A DNA stretch of 61,513 nt, counting the filler. It is 5 parts of 5 records of this genome, joined end to end, with 100 filler letters (N's around TTAATTAATTAA, not from the genome) between each part and the next. Parts side by side here need not be neighbours in the genome. Positions count along the whole stretch, not along the records: positions 1 to 7,990 come from DRR378314_848; 4 more parts are not named here. One strand, written 5' to 3'. Of the stretch, positions 1 through 61,513 are shown piece after piece. The stretch's first letter is position 1, and the number at the start of each line of letters is the position of its first letter. The notes beneath the pieces are model-generated. The model saw only the letters and a list, made by a program, of their open reading frames with translations, was not told where the DNA came from and ran no database searches. The position numbers were made by a program, and so were the translations under genes.

Positions 1-1765
1 GCCAAGCAATTCCCCCGCGAGCGCAGCGCCCAGCTTTGGTGTTCAGGTACTCCTCTCCCCAGCATGTCACCTGGGTTGGCTCGTTTCAAACAAGATAGAA
101 TGCAATGGCGCAAAAACGGATTTTGCAATGCGTCCGCTCGCACATCGCAGACCGCTTAGCGAAGAGTGCACCTGCGCGTGCAAGATGGCAGGGAGCGCCC
201 TGCTTGCACGTACATCGACAACAACGCGCTGCAGAATCTCGCGTCCAACCAGCTGAGCTGCGTTTGCGCGTGCCATTGCCGCTTTCTCACGCGACCGCCG
301 TCTCCTTTCGCTTCTGCTTATATTCGAGAGTACCGTGAAATCGAGTGCAGTATTCCCACTGCGCAATATGTCTGCGGTCGGCTCCTGCACACTTCTCGCC
401 ACCTAGCGTCAGAGTCCACTCGCGGAGCGCGCAGCCCAGCAGCGCTTTACCGAGGAGACGGACCCGCGCGTACGCACAGCGACAGCGCGGCTTGCTTCCA
501 GCTGGTGCGTTGTTCCCCCTGTGCCAGCGACCTGTCTTGCCAAGCGCAGTCCCGATGGGCACCGTCACGGAGCAAGAGAGGGTGCCACGCACGCAATTTT
601 CTACATGAGCAGAAAAAAAAGGAAAGAGAAAATCAAGATTGGTCGCAGAGCACCTCGGAGGAACAGCGGGAACGCCGTGCGACTGGCGGCGCCGCAGCGC
701 AAGTTATCTTTCCGCGCGAGCCAAGCAGTGGCGTGGTTTCGTTCACGCACAGCGAAGGTCGCCTCACTTGCGACACGGGGAAAACGGAGCACTTCAGAAA
801 CCTCGCACGCGTTCCACACACACTTATCCCACTGTATCTATTGGTACTTCATACGTGCTATGCATAATCTTGTGTAGCGAAGCCCGGAGCCGGTCCCGGA
901 GGGAGGTGCGAGAGCGCGCTGCGCGGGCACGCACAAGGCTTGAGCGAGCACAGGTCAAGCGTGGGCGTGTTTTCACACAAGTTTCAATTTTACTTGCGCA
1001 CAGCAGTAAGGACAGCCGTTCGCTTTGGAGAGGAAGCGACATCGTGCAGCCAAAAGGCGCACAGCTCCCCTTTCGCCAATTCCAGGCTTACTACTCGTGC
1101 CTCTTCCTTTCGGCCCACTTCTCTCACGCCATCGAAATGGCGGATATGGAGTGGCGTATTCGCGCAATCAGTGCCGCCGTTTGCCGAAAGGACGTCCATC
1201 GCACCTCGCGCGCCGCACAGCGAAACAGAGTCGCCCAGAGAGATTGCCGTCGCGACGCGCGCGTGTGTGCCAATGCGGGGGCGCAGTCCAATTTGGGAAC
1301 ACCGAGACGTGACCGATAAAGTAGTAAGGGTCTATTGTACTTCCACCGCGCCGCCGCGAAACTCGCGCCGGACTCCCTCTGAGCGCTCGACACTGTGCGC
1401 GAACCTGCGAGTGCGCAAATATCAAGCAGCGGTCATTTCCGTTTCTCGCTTTCCGTCGCAATCTCCCGAAACGAATCATCGACTAGAGAGCGCAATAGCA
1501 ACGTGTTGCTTCATTGTGTGCGTAGGACTAGGAGCGTGGGCTGCTCCTTGACGTTGAGGGTGTACGTGAGAGCGAACAGAAAACGAGCGCGCCCGTAGCA
1601 CGTTCGCGTCGCTCCATTTCTCACTGGAAGTCTTGTGCCTCACTTTCTACGAGGATATTTGTGCACCAGCGCAACCTGGTCACGTGCATTGGCACGTGCT
1701 AGCTATGTTTTAGGTGTTCCTGCTCTCGTGGTGTTTCTGTTGCCGTGGGAGCGGGCGCGTAGGCC

Positions 1766-3388
1766 ATGTTGCCGTCTGGCCTACCCGTGGTGCGATGGCG
1801 TGTCGCGAGCGTGGTTCGCGACGCCGGCGCGCTCCGGCTCGAGCGAAGCTCCCTGATCCGATTCTTAGCAAGTGGCTCGAAGAACGCAAGGCGAATTTCT
1901 CTCAATCGAGCAGCTATCCAACGATACAAAATTGAGCAAGTCCTGGAGTGTGGTATGGAGCTCAAGGTGCGCACCGTGAGGCACAGCGCGTTGCCCGCGT
2001 TCGTGCCGCGCTCGCTGCGCAACCACGCCCGAGGCGCCTCTGCCGTGCAGCGTGCGCTCTCCGCTCTGTCGCGCTCCCAGAGTGCTGTGCTCGACACAGA
2101 AGATTCCTTAGATTGAAAGCGCATTTGTGGAAATGTGTAAAGAAACGATCCTGCTCGCGCGCTTGTCATCATTTATGCTACTGGATGTGCCAGTTTCTTG
2201 CCTGCTTTGTTCGTCAGCAAACTTCGGAGTGCTCCGCTTTCGCGCACGGTACCGTACTCTTTCCACTGACAAAACGCGAATTTCCACGGCCATGCGCGCG
2301 CACCTGTGGCTCTCCCGCAATTTGCAGGGCACCGAAGTTAAGTCGCTGCGTGCGGGAAATTGCGACATTTCGGCCGCGGTTGCCATTGTGCGAGAAAAGG
2401 AGCTGTTTCTGCGTCAGTGCACAATACCGGAGTACGACGGAGGCCGCATTGGCCGGCACGGACCAGACCGCGAGCGCCGCCTCCTGGCTCATCGCCGCGA
2501 AATCCAACAAATGGAAAAGTTTCTCTCAGACCCAAATCACACGCTGGTACGTAGAATAGACATTCCTGGTCGCACATTCTGCGTTCGGGTAGGTGGGTGA
2601 GGCAGAGGTATCGATCACGATCTCTCTCTTCGCCAAAGAATGTGGGACTTCTCCTGTTGCTCACGTCACGGTTGTTGTCGAGAATCTCCCGTGTGTTTCC
2701 TTGTTCGAGACGCGCGTTTGCGTGTGTGCCCCTACAAAGTATTATTTTCTCAATTCTACGGCTTATGTACATGTCATCCTCTACTTCTGTAGTGAAATCA
2801 ATTCGCTGTTTGATATTTGCCTAGCGCAGTGCTGAGTCTATCATCGTGACACTGCACAGCATCGTTTTCCTGATCGCTCCGTTTCTCTCACGTCCGCTAT
2901 TCCATTTTTGCGCGGATTTGGCTTCGCTGCGATGATGGCTGTTAAACGACACTCCCTAGATACCAACAAAGGTCTATTTCAATGATAACGGAATCGCGAA
3001 AATCGAGCTCGGCTACTGTCTTGGTCGTCGCCAATCTGACACACGCGAGAATGAAAAGGTACGTGAATCTCGCTCTCTCGTCGTGTTTTGCCTGTTCTCG
3101 GATATCTACGGACGTGTTCTCGTGCTCTACGCGATACAATGTCGTTTCATAAAGCAAAATACCAGTTTGTCATAGGGTAATGAGGAAAGAGGAGTTCACG
3201 AAAGAGCGATTCCCTTCCATATGTTCTGATCGCACGGAGATTTTCTGTGTCGGGTTTCGGCACCGTTGTTCTCCTCGTTGCTCAGCGAATACTCATGATG
3301 GATTTATTTCCGTCGTTTTCGCGACGTTTCTTTTTCCGAGCAGGACAAAATGCACTCGAAAGCCGCTCGATCGGCGCGATCATTTTGA
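1766..3388 (+). CDS. smpB: SsrA(tmRNA)-binding protein SmpB, nuclear-encoded, intron-containing, with putative organellar targeting peptide
   Basis: Exons 1766-1966, 2328-2546 and 2960-3058 join in frame through phase-0 GT..AG introns (GTGCGC..TTTGCAG; GTACGT..CCCTAG). The product reads ...RISLNRAAIQRYKIEQVLECGMELK|GTEVKSLRAGNCDISAAVAIVREKELFLRQCTIPEY...HGPDRERRLLAHRREI...HTL|IPTKVYFNDNGIAKIELGYCLGRRQSDTRENEK. This matches the SmpB motifs NR.A...Y, EaG..L.GTEVKSLR.G, R.RkLL.H+REI, TL.P.k.Y and G++..DkRE. A third donor (GTACGT) is at 3059. The last exon 3344-3388 (DKMHSKAARSARSF*) is tentative. Confidence 0.9.
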
Positions 3389-4421
3389 ATTACAGTACTG
3401 GGAGGAAAATATTCCCTGTAGAACTTCGTCGTTCCTTCTCGTAGTGTTTGTTTGTCCTCTCTGTCGCGCAAACGTGGTTTCATGTCCCTTTTCTTGCTTC
3501 ATGACTTGCTCGTACTTGGTCATTTTTTCTTTTGTACTCTAGAGACACTGTATCGCTTTCCGATGGTGCCTTGGTAGCGACGGAACGTGTTCGGAGCGAA
3601 AGTGTGCTACGATTGGTCTTTCGTCGTGTGTTACCTGCTTTTTTCAGCTGTGTTTTCACAGCGCTTGAGGTCTCTCTTTGTCATTTCCCTTCACGGATCT
3701 ACTTCAAATACATTCCCGAATCCCCATCATACGAGTTCATGACCTTCACCATCTCCTGATTGAGGTCATCTCTGTGGAAGATAACGGGATTGAGTGCATG
3801 ACGTACGTTTTCTTCTTTGCGGCGCGATTTCGCGTAAATCTCGCACTTGTTGCGCTCTGAATCGGCGACATCAACAGCGGTTTTTGTGCGAGAAAAGAGC
3901 GTTTCGGTTCGAAACTCTTTTGCACAATGAGATCCACCTCCCTCGCCCTTCCACCACGCACAAGATTTATTCGCGAAACGAGGAGCAAAGAAGCTACGAT
4001 GCGCCGTAATCCATCGACTAGCACCCGTATTTGCTCCTATTTCTTGCTTTGGGGATAAAGAGGAACCGAAGGTGAAGCTGCAGACACGATCACGTTCCTC
4101 GTGTACGTCTCACGCTAATCTACACAAGTTTCGCACAATGTTGCACTCTCAAATCCTGCAAAAACAAATACGCGGAAGATAATCATCCCATTCATTCTTT
4201 ATCAGACATTTGACTATGAAAAAGTCGTTGGTAGTTCACAAAAGCGACAGAAAACAACAACAACCAAAACCAGCAGAAGTCCATATCATTCTAACCCTGA
4301 ATGTACTTTCCAAGTTCCCTATTGGAGATCAGTATCGAATACGAAAAAAAAAAAAACAATCAGCGAAACCAGACAGTCTCCTGTATCGATACTTTTCACA
4401 ATCGTCACGCCGTTGCGATCG

Positions 4422-7400
4422 CTACTGATCAACATCCATTGCATTCGCATCCTCTTTCTTTTCCGCTGCTTTTACGTCGTCCATATCAATATCGCCGGTC
4501 TTGAGCTTCTCCTCCAGCCGTTGGATTTCTTCCAGCGACGTTGCGTTTGCAATCGCTTCTTTGAGCTTGGCAATCGCCTCTTTGGAAGGCCCTTTGGCTA
4601 CGAAAAGAAAGAAACAAACATGAAAGACAACCACGAATAAGGAACGCTAGCAGGAGAGATATCGGAGAGAAGAACACGCGAAGGATGGATAACGAAATCA
4701 CGGACAATGATGGTGAGAGTATGGAGACAGAATCGACAGAGACTCCATTCCGCCTCGGAGCAAATACTACTACGACATTGTTCCACTACTCTTCGCTCCT
4801 TTGATCGTAATGTGAATCTGCACAGCAGCACAGCGCCATGCGTAGAGCTACTGCAAATCCGAAACGCGTTCTCACGCTCACCGAGACAACAAAAATCGAC
4901 GTATGTAGACGAAATGCTCGCAATGGCGATCGTAGAGCACGTCAGTGACATTCGTGATGAAACGACAACGTCCAACAACATTCCCCGTCATCTCTTTCGC
5001 CACGACTGTAATTTCTCATACTCGGGCGCGAAAACACTACACTCAAACCTTTCGCTCCTCCACCACTACTACAGCGTTCGCTTGAACGATTCTACAACGT
5101 ACATGCAGTATCATCCACGTCAAACGTTTTTGCTTGTTTGGATTCGTGCATTTGCTCCTGCAGTTCTTTCCCTTTACTCCCTCCAAAGAGCTTCTTGGCT
5201 TCTTGGCGTTCCGCATCTTTAACTTTACGAAAATCGAGAATGCGCAATTGAGGAAGCTGCAACGAGAAACGAATAGTGGTCAAAGCGAAAGAAAGTTTGA
5301 ATGTGATAGACGAATCGCAGAGATGGAAAAGCTGATTGCACATGATTGGAAGCGTGACGTACAGATTACGCGGAACAACCGACGAGCTATTGCTCCAACA
5401 AGAAGCGAAACTGAAACGAACTGTGTACAACACACTGTGTGTGAATGCGCGGCCGCCACGAATTATTGACGATAGATGTACGCTTCAGCACGGAGGGACT
5501 GACGCGCTTCACATGTGTATTTGCAGCTTCTTTAAGTGCCAGAGGACTAACTTGGTTCATCTCTTGCACTATCATGTTGGTTCACAGAGCAACTCTGCGA
5601 ACAAAAGAACACAAACACACGTCTTGCAATGGACTGCAGCGACATACATGCAGTCTATGGACCACGTAGAGGTGTGTTCTGTCCCTTTTGGATGCATCCG
5701 TACCTTGAATATAGTGTACAGACGGTAGTTCTCCCTTGTTCGGATCGGATTCTCCAACAGGCTTAATCGAATGAGGCTTTTGAAGCCGGAAAGCGCATCA
5801 ACCGCCTCTGCTCCATCAGAAATAATAATAATAAACATCGGTATTTGCAACAGAGCATTGGATCATTAGATATATGGTTCGAAACGTAACAGTAAAAGCG
5901 GTCCGGCGGGGGAGAACCGAATTCCAAGCGAAAAATAGAAGCGACACCATTCTTTACACTTCATCATCGTGTCACTGCACGTTCTCCACATTGTCTACAA
6001 CAGAGCTGAATGCATTCTTCTCTCGTACGCCAAACGTTCCTCACCGTCTTCTATATTCCTTACAACACTATAGATAAAAAGAATACCTAGGAAACGCACC
6101 AAAGTCGCGGATACTGTTCCCTGACAGAACAAGTGTTTCCAACGCGGTCAAGTTACGAGCCAGATTCGGCGCAATCGACGTGATGCGGTTACGACTTGCC
6201 AAAATTGTACGCAATCGCTATGGTGAGAAACGAAGACAATAAAAGCAGATGAAAGAGGAGCACACACGTTAAGAATGAGAATACATACCAGTACGATCCG
6301 AAAGAGCAAAGACGGAGCAAGGAAATGAGTACAAACAAAAAGTGTGCTTGATGGTTTCTCCCTCTCATCCGCGTTACAACAACCGCGAAGAGACGCACTT
6401 TCTGCACTTTCTACACCGGAAAACCAGCACACAGACGCGACGAAAGAAGTACCAAAGCCATCGCACAGCCAACTATGCATCAGTATCAACCGCTGCGCTC
6501 GTCGCGGGAATACATGGAAACTTGTGATTCAGTACCTGAAAACGAGGAATGTTTTCTAGTCTCGCGATTTCATTCTCGGAAATGTCAATTGTGTCAAACT
6601 GGTCTTTCGCAGCACCGAGATTCTCGATCACAGCGATTTTGTTTCCTGCAATCGCATGCGCAAACCAAACGCACAGCAATTCACCGAGGCCAAGGATAAG
6701 ACACGCATTGATTATAATGACATGAGAAACGGGGGGTATTCAGTCTTGCTGAGAATGCCGGAAGCGCAGCGAAACGCTTCGTGGGAAGAAGAGCAGCGCA
6801 GCACCGTCGAGCGGTTCCGCTTCCGCGCGCGAACCTCACGGTGTACGACGACGCCGTACAGTTCTCCATACTCGAACTACTTCCCCACCGCAACACCGCG
6901 CCCCTTTCTCTCTCTCGCTCTCGTGAATAGATTTCTACTCTTGCAATGTGTGCAGATGCACTGTGTTGCGACACCGCCCCGTAATCCCGTGCGGTACGAA
7001 ATCGGTGGAGTGGCGTTTGCGCCACAAGGCGATATGGGGGCCCGCGAGCCACCTGAACGCCGCAACACCACAGGAAACAACAAGCGCAAATTACTGAAAG
7101 GCACGCAAAATCAAAGACACTACACTATTTTCATCTGAAGTACAAGAACGGAAAATAGTTTTAGAAATAGCGAAGGGTGGAATATCCGGCGTGTTTCGTC
7201 GTGGAATACAGCCGGGAATGTACGCGAGGAGAAGAGCAGCAGCACACGAACGCGCACAGCAACAAGCCGAAGCGGAGCGCGAAGACCCGCGTACTAGCGC
7301 CAAACGAATCACAAACGCCTTGCTCCCCCGTTTGAAAGAGCGAGCAGACTCTTTGAAACGATCCGCTTCATATGATACAATTATTCAAAGGCTTCCAGAG

Positions 7401-7918
7401 CGGTCTACGGTGTAATTGCGTTCATAGGTCCGAGGCGGCGGCGCGGTGCGCAGTCACGGTCTCCCTCGCGCGTTCTCTCTCACTCTCTCTCTCGAGCAAA
7501 CGCGGCGTTTCCGCGCCTTTCGCGCCGCACACGCACGCTATTCCCCGCAGAAACGCCCGAGCGCCACAAAGCCACCACATATTGGACATCTACGTCTCAC
7601 ACGTCGTATTCTCCTCATATGCGCCTTCCCGGTACTTTTTTCTTTCTCTCTCTCTCTCCCCCTCCTTTTCTCGCTCTCGCTCGCTCGCGCTTGTGCGGAG
7701 CGGCGCGCGGGCGGAGCCCCCGCGGGGGCGGCGCGCGCACGAACGAGCGCACGAGCACACGCACAAAAGCCTCAGACAGAGCCGCAATGACGTGCAGAAC
7801 GCAGAATTTCCATACTGACAAGAAGATAAGGAAACGTACCGCGCAAATCGAGCTCGCGTTCGCGAATAGGATTCACAAACTGCGGCGATTTCGCGATGAG
7901 ATCCGCGGTGAGACGCAT
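4422..7918 (-). CDS. SNRPA1: U2 snRNP protein A' (Lea1/SNRPA1), leucine-rich repeat spliceosomal protein, 6 exons
   Basis: Exons (minus strand) 7918-7840, 6645-6536, 6217-6100, 5807-5704, 5256-5103 and 4597-4422 join with consistent phases through GT..AG introns: 741 nt, 246 aa. Translation: MRLTADLIAKSPQFVNPIRERELDLRGNKIAVIENLGAAKDQFDTIDISENEIARLENIP...LSLLENPIRTRENYRLYTIFKLPQLRILDFRKVKDAERQEA...IANATSLEEIQRLEEKLKTG, which is typical U2A'. Confidence 0.95.
7645..7658. repeat. (TC)n microsatellite in intron 1 of the U2A' gene
   Basis: TCTCTCTCTCTCTC. Similar CT runs occur near 6907-6916 and 7474-7493. Confidence 0.7.
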
Positions 7919-7990
7919 CGCGGCGCGCGGTGGTCGGGGAGCAAGGGGCGCGGTGCAGTGCGCGCTCGCACGGCACTCGCAAACATCGAC

Positions 7991-8090
7991 NNNNNNNNNN
8001 NNNNNNNNNNNNNNNNNNNNNNNNNNNNNNNNNNTTAATTAATTAANNNNNNNNNNNNNNNNNNNNNNNNNNNNNNNNNNNNNNNNNNNN
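7991..8090. other. Artificial contig-joining spacer
   Basis: 44 N + TTAATTAATTAA (stops in all six frames) + 44 N. Confidence 0.98.
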
Positions 8091-8120
8091 TTGTGCGAGC
8101 GGGCCTCGCCCGCGAAAGGC
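8091..8120 (+). repeat. REP-like extragenic palindrome
   Basis: TTGTGCGAGCGGGCCTCGCCCGCGAAAGGC with hairpin GCGGGC-CTC-GCCCGC. It aligns over 30 nt with the reverse complement of 40553-40582. Confidence 0.7.
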
Positions 8121-8178
8121 CGGCAAGCCGGCCGGCAGGATCCCAGAGGCGCCTCCCTGGAGGGTCACACCGGGCGGT

Positions 8179-29166: not shown

Positions 29167-29266
29167 NNNNNNNNNNNNNNNNNNNNNNNNNNNNNNNNNN
29201 NNNNNNNNNNTTAATTAATTAANNNNNNNNNNNNNNNNNNNNNNNNNNNNNNNNNNNNNNNNNNNN
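29167..29266. other. Artificial contig-joining spacer
   Basis: 44 N + TTAATTAATTAA + 44 N. Confidence 0.98.
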
Positions 29267-31525: not shown

Positions 31526-32929
31526 GTGTCCGAGGAGCTTTGGAATCGCTGTTTGACTCGGCTGGAAGACGAACTGCCGTCCCAGCAATTCAACATGTGG
31601 ATCCGGCCGTTACAGGTGACGGCTTCCGAGGATGGCGGAGAATTGACGCTTTTCGCGCCTAATCGCTTCGTGGTCGACTGGGTTCGCGACAAATACGTGG
31701 AACGTATCAGCGAGGTGCTGGGCGAGCTGAAGAGCGGCCCCCTGCCCCAGTTACGGTTGGAAGTGGGCAGCTCCCGGGCCGCCCCGGCGCCCCGGCAACC
31801 GGAAGCCGGTGCCGCCCGTGGCCGCCCCGCCGACAGCCGCGCGGCGCCGGTGATCGAGCCCCGCGCCAAGGCGGTGTCGCCGGAGCTGGGCGGTGCCGCC
31901 AAACACCGCAGCAATCTGAATTCGGGCTTCACCTTTCTGACTTTCGTGGAAGGCAAGTCCAACCGCATGGCCTGCGCGGCGGCCCAGCAGGTGGCGGAGA
32001 ACCCGGCCAGCCACGGCTATAACCCGCTGCTGCTGTACGGCGGTGTGGGGCTCGGTAAGACCCACCTGATGCATGCGGTGGGCAACGAGCTGATGCGCCG
32101 CAACCCCAACGCCAAGGTGGTCTATCTGCACAGTGAGCGGTTCGTGGCGGACATGATCTCGGCGTTGCGGAATAAGACCATCAACGAGTTCAAGCGCTTC
32201 TACCGTTCGGTGGACGCCCTGCTGATTGATGATATTCAGTTTTTTGCAGGTAAGGAGCAGTCCCAGGAGGAGTTTTTCCACACCTTTAATGCGTTGTTGG
32301 AAAACGGGCAGCAAATCATCCTGACATGCGATAAATTCCCTAAGGAAGTGGACGGCCTTGAGGAACGGCTGAAAAGCCGGTTCGGGTGGGGGCTGTCGCA
32401 ACCGCTGGAGCCGCCGGAGTTGGAGACGCGGGTCGCGATCCTGAAGAAAAAGGCGGAAGAGGCGCGGGTCGAGCTGCCCAATGACGCGGCCTTCTTTATC
32501 GCCCAGCGGATCCGTTCCAATGTGCGGGAGCTGGAAGGCGCGCTGCGCCGTGTGATCGCCCATGTGCGCTTCACCGGGGCGCAGATCGATATCGGCCTGA
32601 TCAAGGAAGCGCTCAAGGATCTGATCGCCCTGCAGGCCCGCCAGATCAGCATCGACAATATCCAGCGCACGGTGGCGGAGTACTACAAGATCAAGGTGCC
32701 GGACCTGCACTCACCGCGGCGTACCCGCTCGGTGGCCAGGCCGCGCCAGGTGGCGATGGCGTTGTCCAAGGAGTTGACCAGCCATAGCCTGCCCGAGATC
32801 GGGGAAAGCTTCGGCGGCCGGGACCACACCACGGTATTGCATGCCTGCCGGAAGGTGCTGGAGCTGCGCGAATCCAATCCGGAAATAGAAGAAGATTATC
32901 AAAACCTCCTGAGGACCCTGACGTCCTGA
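31526..32929 (+). CDS. dnaA: Chromosomal replication initiator DnaA
   Basis: GTG start ([10 protein letters not shown]...FNMWIRPLQ), [37 protein letters not shown]. Confidence 0.98.
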
Positions 32930-40452: not shown

Positions 40453-40552
40453 NNNNNNNNNNNNNNNNNNNNNNNNNNNNNNNNNNNNNNNNNNNNTTAA
40501 TTAATTAANNNNNNNNNNNNNNNNNNNNNNNNNNNNNNNNNNNNNNNNNNNN
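40453..40552. other. Artificial contig-joining spacer
   Basis: 44 N + TTAATTAATTAA + 44 N. Confidence 0.98.
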
Positions 40553-54842: not shown

Positions 54843-54942
54843 NNNNNNNNNNNNNNNNNNNNNNNNNNNNNNNNNNNNNNNNNNNNTTAATTAATTAANN
54901 NNNNNNNNNNNNNNNNNNNNNNNNNNNNNNNNNNNNNNNNNN
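54843..54942. other. Artificial contig-joining spacer
   Basis: 44 N + TTAATTAATTAA + 44 N. Confidence 0.98.
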
Positions 54943-56907
54943 AAGCAAGATTCTTCACGCTCAAAGGGTCGGTTGTTTTATGTCATTGTGTCCGCCTGAA
55001 CGAGGACGGCGCGGCTGCTGCCGGTGCAGCGCCTGCTGACTTCGCCGCGGACAGAGAGCGCCATCTATTTCACGATGGACGCTGCAAGCTTAGAGAGCCG
55101 CGTGTTTCCTTCGGGATGGTCTGCCGCATCTCTTCGTAAAGCAGCCGTTGTGGTAAGACGCCAAGTGATGATGTAGAAGGCCTGCCAATGCACCAGTGCT
55201 CATCGCGCGCGTCGAAGGAGCCTGGCTAGGTGGCCGGACGCCGCAACGTTAATTTGGCGCAGTTGAACCGTGCGCTGCATACTATCGGCGCATGATCCTC
55301 GCTGGAGATGAAAGTATTCCATATCCGATTTGCTTCTATGTTGTGCTTTGGCTTGCTAGGCGAGCGTCCTGTGCAATTCTGGTCGAATTACCGAAGCTTT
55401 AGTGCGCCGTACGTGCTGTACTTTTATGCACTTGTTTATCTTGGCGGGACGTGCTGCAATGGCGCGGAGCTTGCGAGAACTCTTCTGTTCCCTTTTTCTT
55501 GTTGGAAGCCTCAGAAGTAGCTCCGTTGCACCGTTGTCATTCAGACTGGAAAAAAAAAACGCTTTGGGGCGAATCCTTCTGCCACCCTTTCATCACTACT
55601 GCTCAGCGCTTCTTCGCGTGTGATTGATATTCGAGCGGGCGCGTAATTTTCGCACTCTTACAACGTGCTGCTCGCGTTCGCTTGCTATCGCCTGCACGTG
55701 CAGGAGCGAGATCCGCTGTGGCCGCCAAGTCCGGCGTCGCGACTCGCGCCCCCACTGCGCAGGTCGCTGCTCATGTTGGCCCTGGCGTATCTTGTCTTGA
55801 ATTCAACTCTCTACCTGTTCTCTTGATTTGAATAGTCATCGGTGAGATACGGCGTTGTTGGCTATATGCTAATCTGTACGTGCGCTTCAGTGCGCAACAT
55901 ACGGTTTCCAGTTCAACGTGCCGCGCCAAAGTGGAGAGAGTCGCCACGCACGTGTACTCGTTTATGAAATGAAACATGGTTCCCCTTGCCCAAGGCAAAG
56001 CGCATCGGCGCTTCTCCACGTAGGTCATGTAGCGCCTGAAGTAGTTTGAAAGCTGCAATAGCCGTCTTGTGCAGTGCAAGGGACTCTTTCTGTCGCAGAG
56101 GCGCCGAGCGAAACGCACAGCTAGTGGTCGGTACGGTGGAATCGCAGCAGCTCCGGTGCTGCAGTGCTTTGCTTTTGCTGCAATAGAGATAAAACAAGCG
56201 CGAGCAACAGAGGGCTGCAATCCCAGAAAGATGCAGTTCAACCACATGGGAATATTGCCACAAGATTTACACGTGTAAGGCAACTGTTGTGAGCGTGGAA
56301 GCATGCGTGCAGCACGACAGATTGTCTGCGTGCACGCGAGGACGACGCGCGTGGCGACCGCTTGCCGGCGTGGAAGCCCCTCTCCGCAAAGGTGCAAGCG
56401 CGGCGGAACGAATCACCAGCCCAGCTTCCCGCGCACAAGAGGATAGCGACAAAAACGGGCACTCATTCCTGATGATGATACAAAATAATCCAGAGGAGTA
56501 CCCGTGTGAACCACCCCTGCGCTTCCAGCGCCTTATCACGCGGAAGGAAACGTTTCGTGCGCTCGGCCAGCAAGCGAGTCACCCTGCCGCACGCTGTTGC
56601 TGCTCGAGAAGAGTGGCACGGCGTACGCTTTGTTCTCCGCAGCTGCTCACCTTTTCCGGGATTCCGGAGTGTCAAACAGTGCAAGTTCTGCAGCAATAAA
56701 GCTTCGATCGAGATGCTCGTGAACGTGTCCGGATTCTGCCCCGGAATATTGCACGGAGCGGAAGCGGAGAGGTTGAGTGGTGGCCGTCGTCTTTTCCAGC
56801 GAAGCGCCGCGGTTGTCGGCGGGAAAGGCGTCGTCTTGCACTCCCTTGCGCCGTCACGGCAACAGAGGACGATTCCATTCCCCCGTGCATACATGTCACC
56901 CGCGTAC

Positions 56908-57105
56908 CTTGCACAAAAACGCCCCGCGTATGACGGAAATTCATCTGCTCGAGATATTCAATGATCAGACCATGCACCAAGGCATGCTCCGGTACGACTT
57001 CAGGGCGCGGTTCGTTTGGGAGCTGCAATGCACGGAAGACCTCGCCCTCGAGCCGCGCGCGCATGCGGCCCAGGGTTCCATCTTTCTCGAGTAGCTCCTC
57101 CACAG
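56908..57105 (-). CDS. CEP20: Internal exon of a FOR20/FOPNL (CEP20)-like LisH centriolar protein
   Basis: VEELLEKDGTLGRMRARLEGEVFRAL...EPRPEVVPEHALVHGLIIEYLEQMNFRHTRGVFVQ resembles the FOP/FOR20 TOF-LisH region (LE..G.L....A.IRAEVF.AL...PRP....EN.LI.ELI.EYL.F..Y..T.SV). Bounded by CCGCAG| and |GTACGC. Flanking exons are not resolved. Confidence 0.78.
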
Positions 57106-58438
57106 CTGCGGCATACGACAGACGGGCGCTCTCTACGTAAGCCTGTGTAATATTTTGATTGATTCTAAGCGATGAATCTATGAAATCCCGTTATGAGGAT
57201 TGTGGCTGTGAATGAGAAAGGGAAAGCGGGGTGGAGAGGCGAACGCTACTCTGCAGCGTTGCTATTCCTCATGCCTCAGTGCTGGCGGAGCACCGACCCA
57301 GCTTCCCGCCGCGATTCCCCGTTTCACCGAAGTACGCCACAGTAACTGTGAAAGGTTGTGCCTTGGATGGGTGCCTTGGTTTGGTAAGATCATGGGTATA
57401 CAGGCTACAAACCGTTTCTGAGAAGAAAATTCACGCCCATCCTGCCAAGCACGGGCGCGGAACGGGGGAAACCCTGTGCCCCGCAAAGGGAGTGCACGCG
57501 CAGTGCGTATCGTGCGATACGATAGGAAACGAAAGGCCTCAGTCTGCCAACACACCCTTGCGAAGATCGTCCAGCGATGCCATAGGCAAACTCCGATGGC
57601 GCTCTGATTGTTCTGATTCTACGCCCTGCGTACCCGTCGTCGCTGATCTGGAAAACAGAAATGGAGAAAAGGGAGTGTGAACACGCACCCGATGCAAACG
57701 CCCACCGCTTTCGATGAAGGAATTGTGGCGCGCTTCGCCTTCACGACAGTCGTGTTTTCGCTATCGCAGAAAGTTGCGGTATGTCGTCGTGCCGACGTCG
57801 GTGCGGTGGGGAAGAAGCGGCGTGTTTGAGCTCCAGGCTCTGTACCACGCCGTCGGAATGTTCGACGCGCTCCAAGCCATTACCTTTCCGATGGAAGCGC
57901 GCTTATCGCGTTTCCGACTGGCTCGCTTCCAAGCGCGACAAACAGCAAAATGACGCGCCGACAACGAAGAGCTGCACGAGCCGTAGCGAGGCAGCGCTTT
58001 AGCCTTGCGCGCGCGTTGCCCGAGCAGGAAGAAGAAGAATGCGCGCAGCTTTCGCGTTGCGCTCTACGTCCCACACTTTCCCAAAATTGGGGATGGCGCA
58101 TGGAAGACTGGCAGGCCGGCCCTCGGGAAACGGCCACAGACTTCTCAGGACAGGCCACTGCGAACAGATATCGAGGCAAGTATCCTGTTCCTTATTTGCC
58201 TCTGGATTATTGTACATCGTACATACTATTACAAGTACAATTTAGTGATATGCGACCAAAGAGCAGGCGTTTATTTGCTCATGCACGGCTTGCCGCGCGC
58301 TTCCCCCTGGGCGCTATCGCCGAGCATACCCACGCAGTACGTCAGGACCCCGCCATAGCCAGCATCTCCGCGGGGCATTCGTGAAACAATGCTGAGCTCA
58401 TTCTGCACAAACCACCACAACCAAGGTGTCCGTGCACG

Positions 58439-61400
58439 TCACTTGTCAGGCTGCCCTAGTGCTAAAAGATCTTCAAACGCGCTTGCGGTGCGGTTCGCAG
58501 ACCCGCCTTCCGATGCATCGGCACCATCGCTATCTGAATCCGAGTCGCCTAACGAGGCGAGCAGCGTAGCCGCAGCGCGCGCCTGAGGATTCGCAGCGGC
58601 ACACGCGGAAGGCAGCGTCGATCGCCCCGTGTTACCGACACTGCTGGAACTAGAATGCAGTGTACGCTCACAGGCTATTTCCATTTTACCACGATCTCGA
58701 GTGAAAAGCGTGTCTTTGCTGTGTCCCTGCTCCGGAGCGGCGTCGCGCTGCGCAGCTACGTGTCCCGCACGGGCTTCCATCTCCGGTGCTACTTTAACGA
58801 AGGTGACGCGGTTGGCTGTCGCGCATTGCGAGTCATGATCGTCAAATGTAGAGTGAGACCGCACATTGCCTCCGGTATCTATGGGCGCTAGATCTAAAGC
58901 ATTTGGGACAGGTGCTCGTGCGGTGCTTGCGTCCGAGCTCGCGTCCTCTGCGGGTGCGTGAATCGCGTTGTCCGACCCTGCCTGCCCATCCACGGCATCA
59001 ACCGCATGCTCGCTCCGGCCCAGGTCGGCGTATTGATCCTTGCACTCCACAGCATCGCTTTTTGCGATAGTGCTCCCATGTGCACACGGTGAATCAGAAG
59101 CCAAATCGTCGCTCTGGGAACTCGACGGCGCACTGATACGCGCTGTGCGTGCCCACGCCGCCACATCGTGCGCGCCGGCAATCGTACCGTGCGCCGATAT
59201 GAATCGCAGCACGCTGCCCCACGTTGGATGTGCCTGTAGATTCCTTCGGTGTCCGCACACAAGCAAGTGATTCTTTGCTCGGGTGATTGCCACGTTCAAG
59301 CGGTTCGGCGACACCGTAAACCCCACGCCCTCGGTACGTACACAGGCGAGGATAATGATGTCGCGCTCCGCGCCCTGGAACGCATCAACTGTCGACACTT
59401 GGATTCTGCAGGATTGGGAGTCGCCTGGCAGCGGAGCGCCTCCTAGACCGTGCGACCGGTCTTGACCAAGGAGAGATCTCAGAAGTGCGACCTGTGCCTT
59501 GTACAAAGCAATTATGCCAATCTGACTCTCTTCTATCCCAGCCTGTACGAAGCGCTGCGCCAGCTGCGCCACGAACCGCGCCTCTGCCGGGTTGGTCACG
59601 CTCGCGCCCCCACGGCTGCGCTCCTCCGCTCCGTTTGCGACGTCAGCAAACACAAGAGGCCCCAGCCCTTCGAGCAACGCGTGCCGATCGTCTGCGCTGA
59701 CCCCACAACGGAGACGCCGCTCATAGAATAGTAGGTTGGACAGAGTGCAAATTTTCGGATGGCAGCGGTACTGCGTGCGCAGCATGCTGACGGGTGTTCC
59801 GTTCTGCGCAAGACGGGCGAACAACGCGCGCCCAAGGCCTTCCTCGTCGTTGCGGCACTGCACGCCGAGCGTCGGAGGCAGCTGCAGAGGGTCGCCTACT
59901 AAGATCGCACGTGAGGCGCCGGCGCGCGCAAGAGGTAGAAGCGAGGATGGCTCGGACATTTGTGACGCTTCGTCGAGCACAACAAGCGGGAAGTCTGCGC
60001 CATTCATCACGGGGAACGAGGACGCGGCACACGTCACTCCCACTACGCGATAGGACTTGAGAAGCGCTTCGCGCGAGCGCGAGGCCTTGTGGACCAGAAA
60101 CTCGCGCAGCGCCGCCTGAACGCACGACCGATCTGCTGTCGAGAGCGAAGCGTCTGCTGCCATCTCGCGAAGTGCCTTTTCTGTGTCCGAGTCGGCATCT
60201 TTTCCTTGCCCGCGCACCGCCTGGGGCAGAATCGCCTTCGCTATCTTCCGTATCGACCCTACCCGCGCAAACTGATCGTACCCAGAGGCGAGCAGCCTGA
60301 GGAGGATATTATCAACAGCCACATTCGTAAGTGATGAGACCAGCAGCCTCCCGCTGTCGTTGCCATCTTCGTCCCATATTTGGGAAAGCAGTCGAATAAT
60401 GGCGACTAAGAGCGTTGATTTCCCGGCACCGAATACTCCATGCACGAGCATCACGGAATCGCGATGGGAGTGTCCAGCTTGCGGTGGTTCTCCGCTGGCG
60501 CGGAACCAAGCGACAACTCGACGCATTACCTCGCGCTGATCATCGTTCACAGAAAACAGTACGCACACGCGCGACAAGATCTTATTGAGATCGTCGCGCG
60601 AGAGATGGCGCAGCTGGAACGCGTCTTCGCCGTGTGTGCGGCAGGCAAACGCCGACACGTCACGCGACGCGGCGCCTGATCCGACAAGCGCGGGGAGAAG
60701 CGGCAATCGTTGCCCGAGGCCCGAGCGAACGCACTCGAGCATAGAGAACTCGCTGGCGACTTCGCCTACACGCAGTGCATACACTTGTTGTGGCGATTTC
60801 CAGCTCACTGATCGGAAAACAGCTGCTGCCGCTGCAGCGGCAGTGCGGCCTTCCGCGGCAAGATTGCTCTCTGTGCCGTCGGCAGGGAGAAGCTGCATCA
60901 TGGATTTGGACGACAGGCCGTGCCAAGCTCCGCGGAAGAACACAGTGTCAGTGGGAGCAAATGGAAAACACTTCGATACAATCCATAGATCGTCTTTACT
61001 ATACGATGATGCACGCTCCTTTTCGTGATTCGGTACTTGGAGGAAGTATTTTACGGTGCGCGCTGCGCCGCTATCCTCGCCATCGCTGTCAGACGAGCTG
61101 CCGCGCTTCCGCCGCCGCGCGAAACGCATCGCCTGCGCTTTTTCCCAGTCGTCGTATTTGCGCGACACAAACAGCATCGAGCTGACGTATAGATTGACTC
61201 CCCGCCGCCGCAATGACTGTAAATTCTCTCGGGAAGGCGCCTGTGGCGCATGATGTACAAGTGCACGCGCAGCCTCCACGATACGCAGGTTCAGCTCCTC
61301 GACCAGCGCAGCCGCCATCGTGTTCTCGTACACTGTGCCGGAGGGAAAAGAGTCCGGTATCGTGACGCTCCGTTCAGCAAGTTTGGACGACGAAGCAAGA

Positions 61401-61513
61401 GATTGTGAGGATGGGTAGCGAAGAACAGCGACAGTACGCGCATGCTTGAGTGCCTGTAATGCACTTGGTGGCTTCTGTGGAATTGCCGGCGCCGTTGGAG
61501 TCGATGCGTTCAG
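58439..61513 (-). CDS. ZGRF1-like DNA2/NAM7 (Upf1-like SF1) helicase, 5' partial
   Basis: The frame is open from the window end (61513) to the stop at 58439. Motifs: LVHGVFGAGKS, SSLTNVAVDNIL, LDEASQMSEP, LVGDPLQLPPT, LRTQYRCHP, VSTVDAFQGAERD, RLNVAITRAK. Upstream SSYSKDDLWIVS and VHGVFG are as I recall for ZGRF1. Confidence 0.88.
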   Translation of the reverse strand: MNASTPTAPAIPQKPPSALQALKHARTVAVLRYPSSQSLASSSKLAERSVTIPDSFPSGTVYENTMAAALVEELNLRIVEAARALVHHAPQAPSRENLQSLRRRGVNLYVSSMLFVSRKYDDWEKAQAMRFARRRKRGSSSDSDGEDSGAARTVKYFLQVPNHEKERASSYSKDDLWIVSKCFPFAPTDTVFFRGAWHGLSSKSMMQLLPADGTESNLAAEGRTAAAAAAAVFRSVSWKSPQQVYALRVGEVASEFSMLECVRSGLGQRLPLLPALVGSGAASRDVSAFACRTHGEDAFQLRHLSRDDLNKILSRVCVLFSVNDDQREVMRRVVAWFRASGEPPQAGHSHRDSVMLVHGVFGAGKSTLLVAIIRLLSQIWDEDGNDSGRLLVSSLTNVAVDNILLRLLASGYDQFARVGSIRKIAKAILPQAVRGQGKDADSDTEKALREMAADASLSTADRSCVQAALREFLVHKASRSREALLKSYRVVGVTCAASSFPVMNGADFPLVVLDEASQMSEPSSLLPLARAGASRAILVGDPLQLPPTLGVQCRNDEEGLGRALFARLAQNGTPVSMLRTQYRCHPKICTLSNLLFYERRLRCGVSADDRHALLEGLGPLVFADVANGAEERSRGGASVTNPAEARFVAQLAQRFVQAGIEESQIGIIALYKAQVALLRSLLGQDRSHGLGGAPLPGDSQSCRIQVSTVDAFQGAERDIIILACVRTEGVGFTVSPNRLNVAITRAKNHLLVCGHRRNLQAHPTWGSVLRFISAHGTIAGAHDVAAWARTARISAPSSSQSDDLASDSPCAHGSTIAKSDAVECKDQYADLGRSEHAVDAVDGQAGSDNAIHAPAEDASSDASTARAPVPNALDLAPIDTGGNVRSHSTFDDHDSQCATANRVTFVKVAPEMEARAGHVAAQRDAAPEQGHSKDTLFTRDRGKMEIACERTLHSSSSSVGNTGRSTLPSACAAANPQARAAATLLASLGDSDSDSDGADASEGGSANRTASAFEDLLALGQPDK

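What the first reader, a model, noticed from the sequence alone, without database searches (positions are those of the whole stretch)
1766..3388. Hidden intron-split nuclear smpB: organellar trans-translation in a microbial eukaryote
Seen: three exons in different genomic reading frames join at phase-0 canonical splice sites into an SmpB. The first intron falls inside the most conserved motif (ECGMELK|GTEVKSLRAG). The gene lies tail-to-tail with the spliceosomal U2A' gene and uses the same donor pattern, so it is nuclear rather than bacterial contamination. Established: SmpB acts with tmRNA (ssrA) in ribosome rescue. Among eukaryotes, organellar ssrA with nuclear smpB is known from only some lineages (mitochondria of jakobids and oomycetes, plastids of several algae). 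Inference: this eukaryote has an organelle-encoded, possibly two-piece, tmRNA. If the host is outside the known lineages, this is a new instance of mitochondrial tmRNA-SmpB rescue. No ssrA is visible in this window.
Basis: partly seen in the sequence, partly recalled or inferred. Interest (0 to 1): 0.92.

Follow-up and report, generated by a model that had tools for sequence, protein, structure and literature searches.

The report
Intron-split nuclear smpB, oomycete-type
A real, spliced and expressed nuclear gene for the ribosome-rescue protein SmpB sits on a small eukaryotic contig inside a mostly bacterial assembly; it is related to the mitochondrial SmpB of oomycetes, a known kind of gene, but the host organism could not be identified.

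Summary
Positions 1766-3388 (+) encode a 187-aa SmpB. It has four exons, not three. A 1245-nt contig of a public run carries the spliced form at 100% identity. Exon 2 alone passes Pfam SmpB. The spliced protein matches a bacterial SmpB profile as one domain.

The window is five contigs joined by N spacers. Three are bacterial. smpB lies on a 7990-base eukaryotic contig, convergent with a five-intron U2A' gene.

The best hit among 1.84 billion representatives is the SmpB of Aphanomyces invadans. In trees the window groups with oomycete SmpBs against all sampled bacteria (97/93, 99/93, 91/92). It probably shares one intron position with them. The 43-residue N-terminus is arginine-rich and has no signal-peptide core.

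Most likely this is a mitochondrion-targeted SmpB that works with an mtDNA-encoded tmRNA. Neither ssrA nor localisation could be tested, and the host is unidentified. Verdict: a new member of a known kind, of moderate interest.

The parts
1406..3709 (+). extent of the smpB transcript as seen in one assembled contig (5' UTR 1406-1765, 3' UTR 3389-3709); true ends not known
   Evidence: record 2 (1245 nt): pieces 1406-1964, 2326-2545, 3342-3709 listed. The 98-nt piece between the second and third joints is implied by the joints and by the contig length.
1766..1966 (+). smpB exon 1: ATG, 43-residue arginine-rich N-terminal extension, then the first 24 residues of the SmpB domain
   Evidence: Own-profile hit 18.9 bits, profile positions 14-44. 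No Pfam hit alone.
1967..2327 (+). intron 1, 361 nt, GTGCGC...CAG, phase 0, inside the ECGMELK|GTEVKSLRAG motif
2328..2546 (+). smpB exon 2, 73 codons, core of the SmpB domain
   Evidence: Pfam PF01668 E 2.1e-16, 60.6 bits, positions 25-96/143. Aligns to PDB SmpB chains, e.g. 5zey_C residues 37-109.
2547..2959 (+). intron 2, 413 nt, GTACGT...TAG, phase 0; position probably shared with oomycete-like smpB genes
2960..3058 (+). smpB exon 3, 33 codons, last strands of the domain and start of the tail (GRRQSDTR)
   Evidence: Pfam PF01668 E 6.5e-05, positions 98-129. PDB 7ljp_A residues 113-143.
3059..3343 (+). intron 3, 285 nt, GTACGT...CAG, phase 0
3344..3388 (+). smpB exon 4: 14 codons of the basic C-terminal tail plus TGA
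4422..7918 (-). convergent neighbour: U2A'-type LRR_9 gene, six exons, 239 aa; introns 4598-5102, 5257-5703, 5808-6099, 6218-6535, 6646-7839
   Evidence: Joints. Splice sites. Translation. LRR_9 hits at profile positions 29-62, 65-101, 106-138 and 139-173 on successive exons. The name U2A' is from recall of the human protein; the tool result is LRR_9.
7991..8090 (.). spacer with two runs of 44 N: end of the eukaryotic contig that bears smpB; bacterial DNA follows

Best explanation
This is an expressed nuclear gene of an unidentified eukaryote. It has three spliceosomal introns and encodes a full-length SmpB with a roughly 43-residue N-terminal presequence.

It belongs to the same clade of eukaryotic SmpBs as the mitochondrion-targeted SmpBs of oomycetes. 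Most likely the protein is imported into the mitochondrion. There it would bind the tRNA-like domain of an mtDNA-encoded, probably reduced, tmRNA. It would deliver alanyl-tmRNA to the empty A site of mitoribosomes stalled on broken mRNAs, with its basic C-terminal tail probing the vacant mRNA channel.

Shown here: the gene model, splicing, expression, family membership and kinship to oomycete SmpBs. Inferred: mitochondrial import, the existence of ssrA, and the rescue activity.
For: Gene model and expression. A 1245-nt contig of run X1 is made of exactly the four exon blocks, with GT..AG joints and 0 mismatches in the pieces listed. The ORF is intact, with phase-0 junctions.

Family. Pfam SmpB matches exons 2 and 3 collinearly. 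PDB SmpB chains align collinearly. The spliced protein gives one 166.5-bit domain over profile positions 15-158 of 173. It aligns end to end with 26 database proteins, bacterial or bacteria-like, at 33-42% identity, tail included.

Eukaryotic setting. The convergent six-exon LRR_9/U2A' gene uses the same donor type. The region has no match in G001.

Kinship. In a full HMMER scan, 987 proteins scored E<=0.001. The best is P0256 (E 1.5e-14, 54% identity), named SsrA-binding protein of Aphanomyces invadans. P0381 is from Albugo laibachii. Hudson et al. 2014 (PMC4131195, passages read) list Albugo and Phytophthora SmpBs as mitochondrion-targeted. Shared motifs are GNCDISAA, GRH.P, LG.C and DTR in place of DKR.

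Trees. {window, P0259, Aphanomyces, Albugo, two fragments} separates from 43 bacterial rows at UFBoot 97 / SH-aLRT 93. {window, Aphanomyces, Albugo} separates at 99/93. With 16 more SmpBs from the class of an alphaproteobacterial MAG, support is 91/92. Holding the window with the Planctomycetota-like group costs 16 lnL, p-AU 0.034.

Intron position. Three ORF fragments, two of which (P0258, P0401) sit next to Albugo in the trees, lose homology at the column of the window's intron 2. They continue with VR, VS or VR, as a GT donor read in frame would give.

N-terminus. It has 9 R/K against 2 D/E. The maximum 15-residue Kyte-Doolittle hydropathy is 0.77, so there is no signal-peptide core. The two oomycete presequences look alike.
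Against: No ssrA was seen, and none could be looked for in this organism's organelles.

No targeting predictor was available. The presequence reading rests on composition only.

The trees lack jakobid, malawimonad, amoebozoan, cryptist, algal and cyanobacterial SmpBs. Their bacterial rows were chosen as best hits of exon 2. The eukaryotic rows have long branches, so attraction is possible. Support falls to 91/92 with more rows. The AU test is marginal, and its group was named after seeing a tree.

By plain identity the nearest named bacteria are Planctomycetota MAGs (55-57% over exon 2 residues 1-60), about as close as Aphanomyces (54%).

The kind of run X1 is 'RNA?', a guess, and X1 may be the same sample as the window.

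The shared intron is inferred from protein fragments, not from DNA.
Confidence: 0.68

Rival explanations
1. It is a plastid-targeted SmpB of an alga whose plastid genome encodes ssrA, as in red algae, diatoms, cryptophytes and eustigmatophytes.
For: Nuclear plastid-targeted SmpBs are the commoner eukaryotic kind: nine algal cases against three oomycete cases in Hudson et al. 2014 (PMC4131195, passages). The host is unidentified. No cyanobacterial or algal SmpB was in my trees.
Against: The best hit of a full scan is an oomycete SmpB, and the window groups with oomycetes, which have no plastid (my knowledge). The N-terminus has no hydrophobic signal-peptide core, which import into complex plastids needs (that requirement is established knowledge, not tested here). 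Burroughs and Aravind 2019 (PMC6514570, passage) find algal SmpBs nearest to cyanobacteria.
Confidence: 0.08
2. It is an SmpB kept without a tmRNA partner: a relic on its way out, or a protein with a tmRNA-independent role in the organelle.
For: ssrA was not seen. Hudson et al. 2014 (PMC4131195, abstract and passages) describe bacteria that keep one partner without the other. DKR is changed to DTR, and the tail is somewhat shorter: 18 residues after DTR against 24 in P0001.
Against: The ORF is intact, spliced and expressed. The core motifs GTEVKSLR and P.RERRLLAHRRE and the basic tail are conserved. DTR is shared with Aphanomyces, and Albugo's tail is as short. Oomycetes do have mt ssrA (PMC4131195, PMC10352661 passages). 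The window's branch is not long (0.58-0.67 with P0259 in the set; 1.14 without it).
Confidence: 0.12
3. It is an independent, fairly recent transfer of smpB from a Planctomycetota-like bacterium into this eukaryote's nucleus, with later intron gain. The likeness to oomycete SmpBs would then be convergence or long-branch attraction.
For: The highest identities to named bacteria are Planctomycetota MAGs (57% and 55% on exon 2; 43-44% over 136 columns). Shared motifs include ECG..L.GTEVKSLRAG.C and TIPEY...RERRLLAH. The eukaryotic group does not nest in the sampled alphaproteobacterial class.
Against: The trees put the window with the oomycetes. The constrained tree is 16 lnL worse, p-AU 0.034. 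There is an exact shared GNCDISAA, a shared DTR, and a probably shared intron position. A common Planctomycetota-like source for the whole eukaryotic clade is not excluded and would not conflict with the main reading.
Confidence: 0.1
4. It is bacterial contamination or a chance run of open frames, not a eukaryotic gene.
For: The window is mostly bacterial: contigs at 8091-54842 match G001 at 94-99%.
Against: The region has no match in G001. Three GT..AG introns are removed in an assembled transcript. The profile scores are far above shuffles. The neighbour is an intron-rich U2A'-type gene. G001's SmpB is 25% identical.
Confidence: 0.01

Closest known systems
Oomycete nuclear-encoded, mitochondrion-targeted SmpB (Aphanomyces invadans P0256; Albugo laibachii P0381; Phytophthora entries in Hudson et al. 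2014, PMC4131195)
   Same: A nuclear gene giving a single SmpB domain of about 180-190 aa with an arginine-rich N-terminal extension of about 35-45 residues. Shared motifs are GNCDISAA, GRH.P, LG.C and DTR. It forms one clade with them in four trees. One intron position is probably shared.
   Different: The window lies outside the sampled oomycete group, which holds together at 100/99. It keeps more bacterial-like residues: GTEVKSLRAG and IPEY where oomycetes have [AP]SEVKS and IPVW. The host's genes carry many long introns (285-1194 nt, five in a 239-aa U2A'). From my own knowledge, that is unlike oomycetes. The host is unidentified.
Jakobid tmRNA-SmpB (Andalucia godoyi; Gray et al. 2020, PMC7050145)
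   Same: A nuclear SmpB paired with a structurally reduced mtDNA-encoded tmRNA, read as an ancestral mitochondrial trait kept patchily among protists.
   Different: Andalucia's SmpB is described as alphaproteobacteria-affiliated (passage read). The window's group did not join 16 SmpBs of an alphaproteobacterial class. Most Andalucia nuclear genes lack introns (passage read). No jakobid SmpB sequence was available to me for a direct comparison.
Algal plastid-targeted SmpB (Thalassiosira, Cyanidioschyzon, Guillardia and others; PMC4131195, PMC6514570)
   Same: A nuclear gene, an organelle-targeted SmpB and an organelle-encoded ssrA.
   Different: Those are reported as nearest to cyanobacteria, and in complex algae they need a signal peptide. 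The window has no such hydrophobic N-terminus, and its best hit is an oomycete.
Bacterial SmpB (PF01668; PDB 5zey_C, 7ljp_A, 1j1h_A)
   Same: The same domain from end to end, including the basic C-terminal tail, at 33-42% identity to 26 database proteins, bacterial or bacteria-like.
   Different: This gene has three spliceosomal introns and an N-terminal presequence, has DTR in place of DKR, and is not encoded next to ssrA.

Membership tests
SmpB (Pfam PF01668) | Profile match above the curated cut-off | tested here: met
   Exon 2 alone scores 60.6 bits against a cut-off of 27. The spliced protein could not be handed to the Pfam tool, because a joined sequence may not be typed. My own profile of 78 bacterial SmpBs gives 166.5 bits.
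SmpB (Pfam PF01668) | Collinear coverage of the whole domain in one chain | tested here: met
   Pfam positions 25-96 (exon 2) are followed by 98-129 (exon 3). The own profile is covered over positions 15-158 of 173 as one domain. Exons joined in the wrong order break into three pieces.
SmpB (Pfam PF01668) | Basic C-terminal tail after the G-K-K-x-x-D-K-R motif | tested here: met
   GRRQSDTR is followed by 18 residues, 6 of them K or R. K is changed to R, and DKR to DTR as in Aphanomyces.
SmpB (Pfam PF01668) | Oligonucleotide-binding beta-barrel fold | not tested
Sequence alignment to solved SmpB chains is collinear.
SmpB (Pfam PF01668) | A tmRNA partner in the same genetic compartment | not testable with these tools
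   No tmRNA is in the window. The own assembly is not held. No organelle DNA of the host could be reached.
Nuclear-encoded mitochondrion-targeted SmpB (oomycete type) | Nuclear gene with spliceosomal introns, transcribed and spliced | tested here: met
Nuclear-encoded mitochondrion-targeted SmpB (oomycete type) | Groups with oomycete SmpBs to the exclusion of bacteria | tested here: met
   Support is 97/93 (49 rows), 99/93 (46 rows), 91/92 (59 rows) and SH-aLRT 94 (84 rows). Sampling limits and long branches apply.
Nuclear-encoded mitochondrion-targeted SmpB (oomycete type) | N-terminal mitochondrial presequence | tested here: inconclusive
   The composition fits: net charge +7 over 43 residues, no hydrophobic core, like the oomycete N-termini. 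No predictor or localisation data were available.
Nuclear-encoded mitochondrion-targeted SmpB (oomycete type) | mtDNA-encoded ssrA in the same organism | not testable with these tools
   No mitochondrial DNA of the host could be reached.
Algal plastid-targeted SmpB | Signal peptide plus transit peptide (complex plastids) | tested here: not met
   The maximum mean Kyte-Doolittle hydropathy over 15 residues is 0.77 in the first 43 residues. A transit peptide of a primary plastid is not excluded by this.
Algal plastid-targeted SmpB | Cyanobacterial affinity | not tested
   No cyanobacterial or algal SmpB could be obtained for the trees. None of the named hits is cyanobacterial.

The most novel reading that the evidence does not exclude
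The host lies outside every lineage with known organellar trans-translation. It is clearly not a crown oomycete, and its ZGRF1-like helicase has no relative above 48% identity among the 120 best hits from NCBI, UniRef, EukProt and other sources. Its smpB shares a clade, and probably an intron, with oomycete smpB and with an unnamed 331-aa eukaryote-like SmpB (P0259). That would mean a nuclear, mitochondrial-type smpB, and hence mitochondrial tmRNA, far older and more widespread than the oomycetes. Its bacterial source would be nearer to Planctomycetota-like SmpBs than to the mitochondrial ancestor.
Probability: 0.3. Interest if true: 0.6.

Novelty: new member of a known kind. Interest (0 to 1): 0.38.

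Why it matters
Trans-translation in mitochondria is an ancestral bacterial trait kept only in scattered protist lineages. Each new holder helps to date its losses and points to an mtDNA that should carry a hard-to-find reduced ssrA.

Here the gene is verified down to its splice junctions. It ties an unidentified, apparently poorly sampled eukaryote to the oomycete type of SmpB. If the host proves to be outside the oomycetes, the shared clade and shared intron would push this nuclear gene back to a deeper ancestor.

There is also a practical point. The gene was invisible to prokaryotic gene calling in a bacterial-looking assembly, and the window is a mix of organisms.

Tried and rejected
- The own assembly is not held, so neither the host's other contigs nor its organelles could be searched.
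- Pfam on exon 1 alone gave no family at E<=1.
- Sequencing runs: no RNA holder is listed as RNA on record. The single holder X1 is 'RNA?' by guess.
- Word-index searches with exon 2 found no eukaryotic relative. In the 'longer' mode, 547 proteins scored E<=0.001 among 743 candidates; the 120 listed came from ncbi, ena, jgi and Logan, none from EukProt, and the few that carry a name are bacterial. With the length floor moved to 182 aa, only 6 proteins appeared, all bacteria-like with over-long called starts.
- A metagenome scan with exon 1 matched 598 pattern stretches, none a relative.
- The protein atlas gave only generic SmpB and helicase clusters and no help on taxonomy.
- Host identification failed. 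The ZGRF1-like helicase's best hits are 44-48% identical and come from Gefionella, Mastigella, Physarum, choanoflagellates, chytrids and animals. That is too distant and too mixed to place the host. I first thought of coccidians from the look of the DNA. No apicomplexan appeared among the 120 best helicase hits, so I dropped that idea.
- Of 20 long or top SmpB hits looked up by name, 2 were oomycetes, 4 clusters carried only bacterial or generic names, and 14 had no name.
- Hafez et al. 2013 is not held.
- Literature searches for SmpB with apicoplast, Toxoplasma, alveolat* and stramenopile found nothing on such a gene outside the known cases.
- Structure prediction and complex prediction were not run. 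The spliced protein is not accepted, and no binding claim needs them.
- The supplement of Gray et al. 2020 (Table S3B, a list of eukaryotic tmRNA and SmpB sequences) could not be seen. It may already hold this lineage.
Full report
WHAT THE WINDOW IS. The 61,513-base window is not one molecule. Four 100-base spacers, each with two runs of 44 N, lie at 7991-8090, 29167-29266, 40453-40552 and 54843-54942. They cut the window into five contigs.

Contigs 2-4 (8091-54842) have 60-73% G+C. They match pieces of an unnamed 3.5-Mb prokaryotic genome, G001, at 94-99% identity.

Contig 1 (1-7990) and contig 5 (54943-61513) have 46-60% G+C and carry intron-bearing or eukaryote-type genes. The stretch 1500-3600 has no match in G001. 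The window's own assembly is not held. So the finding sits on a 7,990-base eukaryotic contig that travels with bacterial contigs in one assembly.

THE OBSERVATION. Joining 1766-1966, 2328-2546, 2960-3058 and 3344-3388 gives a 564-nt reading frame of 187 codons plus TGA. Every exon length is a multiple of three, so all three introns are phase 0. The introns start GTGCGC, GTACGT and GTACGT and end in AG. A stop lies two codons upstream of the ATG.

One public run (X1; Logan contigs; kind 'RNA?', a guess) holds the region. When laid on 1-7900, it gives a 1245-nt contig made of exactly the exon blocks from 1406 to 3709. The joints skip 361, 413 and 285 bases, all GT..AG after the stated shifts, and there are no mismatches in the pieces listed.

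The same run shows five CT..AC joints in the convergent gene on the minus strand. X1 may be the sample the window came from, so it is not independent for the sequence. A spliced form, however, can only come from RNA or a processed copy.

IS IT SmpB.
- Pfam PF01668 matches exon 2 at E 2.1e-16 (60.6 bits, cut-off 27, profile 25-96 of 143).
- It matches exon 3 at E 6.5e-05 (23.3 bits, profile 98-129).
- Exon 1 alone gives nothing.
- Solved SmpB chains align collinearly. Exon 2 aligns to 5zey_C residues 37-109 and to Thermus 1j1h_A residues 28-89. Exon 3 aligns to 7ljp_A residues 113-143 and to 1j1h_A residues 101-132.

A joined protein may not be typed into the tools. I therefore built a profile from 78 bacterial SmpBs in a script and scored the spliced protein there. 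It gave one domain of 166.5 bits, covering profile positions 15-158 of 173 and residues 38-182 of 187. The exons alone scored 18.9, 98.6, 14.6 and -0.9 bits. Exons joined in a wrong order broke into three pieces. Five shuffles scored -0.3 or lower. The profile's members were found with exon 2, which flatters exon 2's score but not those of exons 1 and 3.

The spliced protein aligns end to end with 26 database proteins, bacterial or bacteria-like, at 33-42% identity. The alignment includes the motif GRRQSDTR (bacterial GKK..DKR) and an 18-residue basic tail.

G001's own intronless SmpB is only 25% identical (40 of 158 aligned residues). The gene is therefore not a copy from the co-assembled bacterium.

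Two details of the finding need correcting. There are four exons, not three. Exons 1, 3 and 4 share one genomic frame, and only exon 2 differs.

THE NEIGHBOUR. The minus-strand gene (CDS 4422-7918) splices into a 239-aa protein. Its exons hit Pfam LRR_9 at successive profile positions 29-62, 65-101, 106-138 and 139-173. I recognise it as U2A' from recall of the human protein; the tool result is LRR_9.

Its donors are GTACGT, GTACGG, GTGCGT, GTACTG and GTACGT, the same GT(A/G)CG flavour as in smpB. The two transcript contigs end 476 bases apart (3709 and 4186), tail to tail as described.

WHO ARE ITS RELATIVES. Word-index searches with exon 2 returned no eukaryotic relative: the hits came from NCBI, ENA, JGI and Logan, none from EukProt, at 56% identity or less, and the few named ones are bacterial.

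The exhaustive HMMER scan of 1.84 billion representatives gave 987 proteins at E<=0.001 and 3 at E<=1e-10. The best is P0256 (E 1.5e-14, 54% identity). Name look-ups identify it as the SsrA-binding protein of the oomycete Aphanomyces invadans. P0381 is from Albugo laibachii.

Of the 20 proteins I looked up, these two were the only named eukaryotes. Four clusters had bacterial or generic names, and 14 had none.

Hudson, Lau and Williams 2014 (PMC4131195; abstract and passages read) list Albugo and Phytophthora SmpBs as nuclear and mitochondrion-targeted partners of the oomycete mitochondrial tmRNA.

The window shares with Aphanomyces an exact GNCDISAA, as well as GRH.P, LG.C and DTR for DKR. 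An unnamed 331-aa protein, P0259, has a serine-rich N-terminal extension and an insertion of about 20 residues, and carries similar motifs.

TREES (IQ-TREE, LG+C20+F+G4).
- 84 rows, quick search: the window, P0259, Aphanomyces, Albugo and two fragments form one group at SH-aLRT 94.
- 49 rows, careful search: the same six against 43 bacterial rows at UFBoot 97 / SH-aLRT 93. The four oomycete-type rows hold together at 100/99, with the window outside them.
- 46 rows, without P0259 and the fragments: window, Aphanomyces and Albugo at 99/93.
- 59 rows, with 16 SmpBs from the class of an alphaproteobacterial MAG: 91/92. The eukaryotic group does not nest among those 16.
- Forcing the window to join the Planctomycetota-like rows costs 16 log-likelihood units, p-AU 0.034. 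This is marginal, and the group was named after I had seen a tree.

Limits of the trees:
- The bacterial rows are mostly the best hits of exon 2.
- The eukaryotic rows have long branches.
- By plain identity, two Planctomycetota MAGs are as near as Aphanomyces (57% and 55% over exon 2 residues 1-60).

A PROBABLY SHARED INTRON. Three ORF fragments from other organisms (P0258, P0401, P0327) match SmpB up to the column of the window's ...HTL and then lose homology. P0258 and P0401 sit next to Albugo in the trees; P0327 was not in any tree. The fragments continue with V-R, V-S and V-R, which is what GTNCGN or GTNAGY donors give when read in frame. The window's own read-through gives V-R-R. This suggests an intron at the same phase-0 position. 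It is an inference from protein fragments, because their DNA could not be fetched.

WHICH COMPARTMENT. The first 43 residues precede the start of bacterial SmpBs. They hold 9 R/K against 2 D/E, and 11 A/L. The highest 15-residue Kyte-Doolittle mean is 0.77, so there is no signal-peptide core. The Aphanomyces and Albugo N-termini look the same.

This fits a mitochondrial presequence. It argues against the signal peptide plus transit peptide that complex plastids require. No predictor was available, so this remains an inference.

HOW IT MOST LIKELY WORKS. By homology, the mature protein binds the tRNA-like domain of tmRNA. It escorts alanyl-tmRNA with EF-Tu into the empty A site of a ribosome stalled at the end of a broken mRNA, and its basic tail occupies the vacant mRNA channel. 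This is established for bacterial SmpB.

Jakobid mitochondrial tmRNAs are reduced and have lost the mRNA-like region (the title of Jacob et al. 2004, as cited in PMC7050145; Fig. 4 legend of PMC10352661). In such mitochondria rescue may proceed without tagging.

Shown here: gene, splicing, expression, family and kinship. Inferred: import, partner RNA and activity.

WHO IS THE HOST. This is unresolved. Contig 5 carries a single open frame of at least 1024 codons for a ZGRF1-like superfamily-1 helicase (AAA_11/AAA_12). Among its 120 best hits, none exceeds 48% identity. The best by E-value is from the malawimonad Gefionella okellyi (44%). It is followed by a Logan protein, Mastigella, Physarum, choanoflagellates, chytrids, animals, Spongospora and Diphylleia.

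No close relative of either protein is in the collections searched. The many long introns are, from my own knowledge, unlike oomycetes.

COMPARISON WITH WHAT IS KNOWN.
- Nuclear, organelle-targeted SmpB is a known kind of gene (PMC4131195).
- Mitochondrial ssrA is reported in jakobids, oomycetes and Palpitomonas, with unannotated cases and co-occurring nuclear SmpBs in 'a few other eukaryotes' (Gray et al. 2020, PMC7050145, passages; their Table S3B is a supplement I could not open).
- It is also reported in cryptophytes, haptophytes, malawimonads and amoebozoans (Lang et al. 2023, PMC10352661, Fig. 4 legend).
- Horvathova et al. 2021 (PMC8134430, one passage) call the tmRNA-SmpB complex an ancestral trait kept in scattered protists.

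My searches of the held library for SmpB with apicoplast, Toxoplasma, alveolat* and stramenopile found nothing beyond these cases.

VERDICT. This is a new member of a known kind, and interest is about 0.38. It would rise if the host proves to lie outside the lineages already known to keep organellar trans-translation.

Noticed in passing
window 7991-8090, 29167-29266, 40453-40552, 54843-54942: The window is a chain of five contigs joined by 100-base spacers (44 N, 12 bases, 44 N). Contigs 1 and 5 are eukaryotic. Contigs 2-4 are bacterial, 94-99% identical to pieces of G001. The second contig alone maps to three different G001 contigs (C2, C58, C27).
   Followed up: yes
window 8091-8148: A repeat of about 58 bases at the start of the first bacterial contig matches more than 50 places in G001 at 77-100% identity, often in close inverted pairs. 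It looks like a REP-like dispersed element of that bacterium.
   Followed up: no
window 32036-32116 (-): This is the only Rfam match at gathering level in the window: AsdA (antisense RNA of dnaA mRNA), 53.8 bits against a threshold of 52, in a bacterial contig. It is barely above threshold and may just reflect conserved dnaA sequence.
   Followed up: no
window 58439-61513 (-): A single open frame of at least 1024 codons, running off the window's end, encodes a ZGRF1-like superfamily-1 helicase (AAA_11/AAA_12). The best relatives are only 44-48% identical, the top one from the malawimonad Gefionella okellyi. This was the only handle on the host's identity, and it was not decisive.
   Followed up: partly
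window 213-600 and 1205-1253 (-): A contig of run X1 with the highest depth figure (110.9) joins these two blocks across a 604-base CT..AC intron and continues into 108 bases not found in the stretch laid (1-7900). None of the three frames gives a convincing protein. It may be a UTR or a non-coding RNA.
   Followed up: partly
protein P0259 (from; not in the window): An unnamed 331-aa SmpB has a roughly 160-residue serine-rich N-terminal extension and a roughly 20-residue insertion. In two of the three trees that hold it, it joins the window's SmpB, weakly (90/25; 69/26). It looks eukaryotic. Its source organism could not be looked up, and it may mark another lineage with organellar SmpB.
   Followed up: partly
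window 1406-1765: The smpB transcript contig starts about 360 bases upstream of the ATG, so the 5' UTR is long. I did not examine upstream ATGs.
   Followed up: no
window 56672-57190 (-): An open frame of 172 codons contains a stretch that from memory resembles the LisH/FOP dimerisation motif of centrosomal proteins. Pfam gave no family at E<=0.1.
   Followed up: partly
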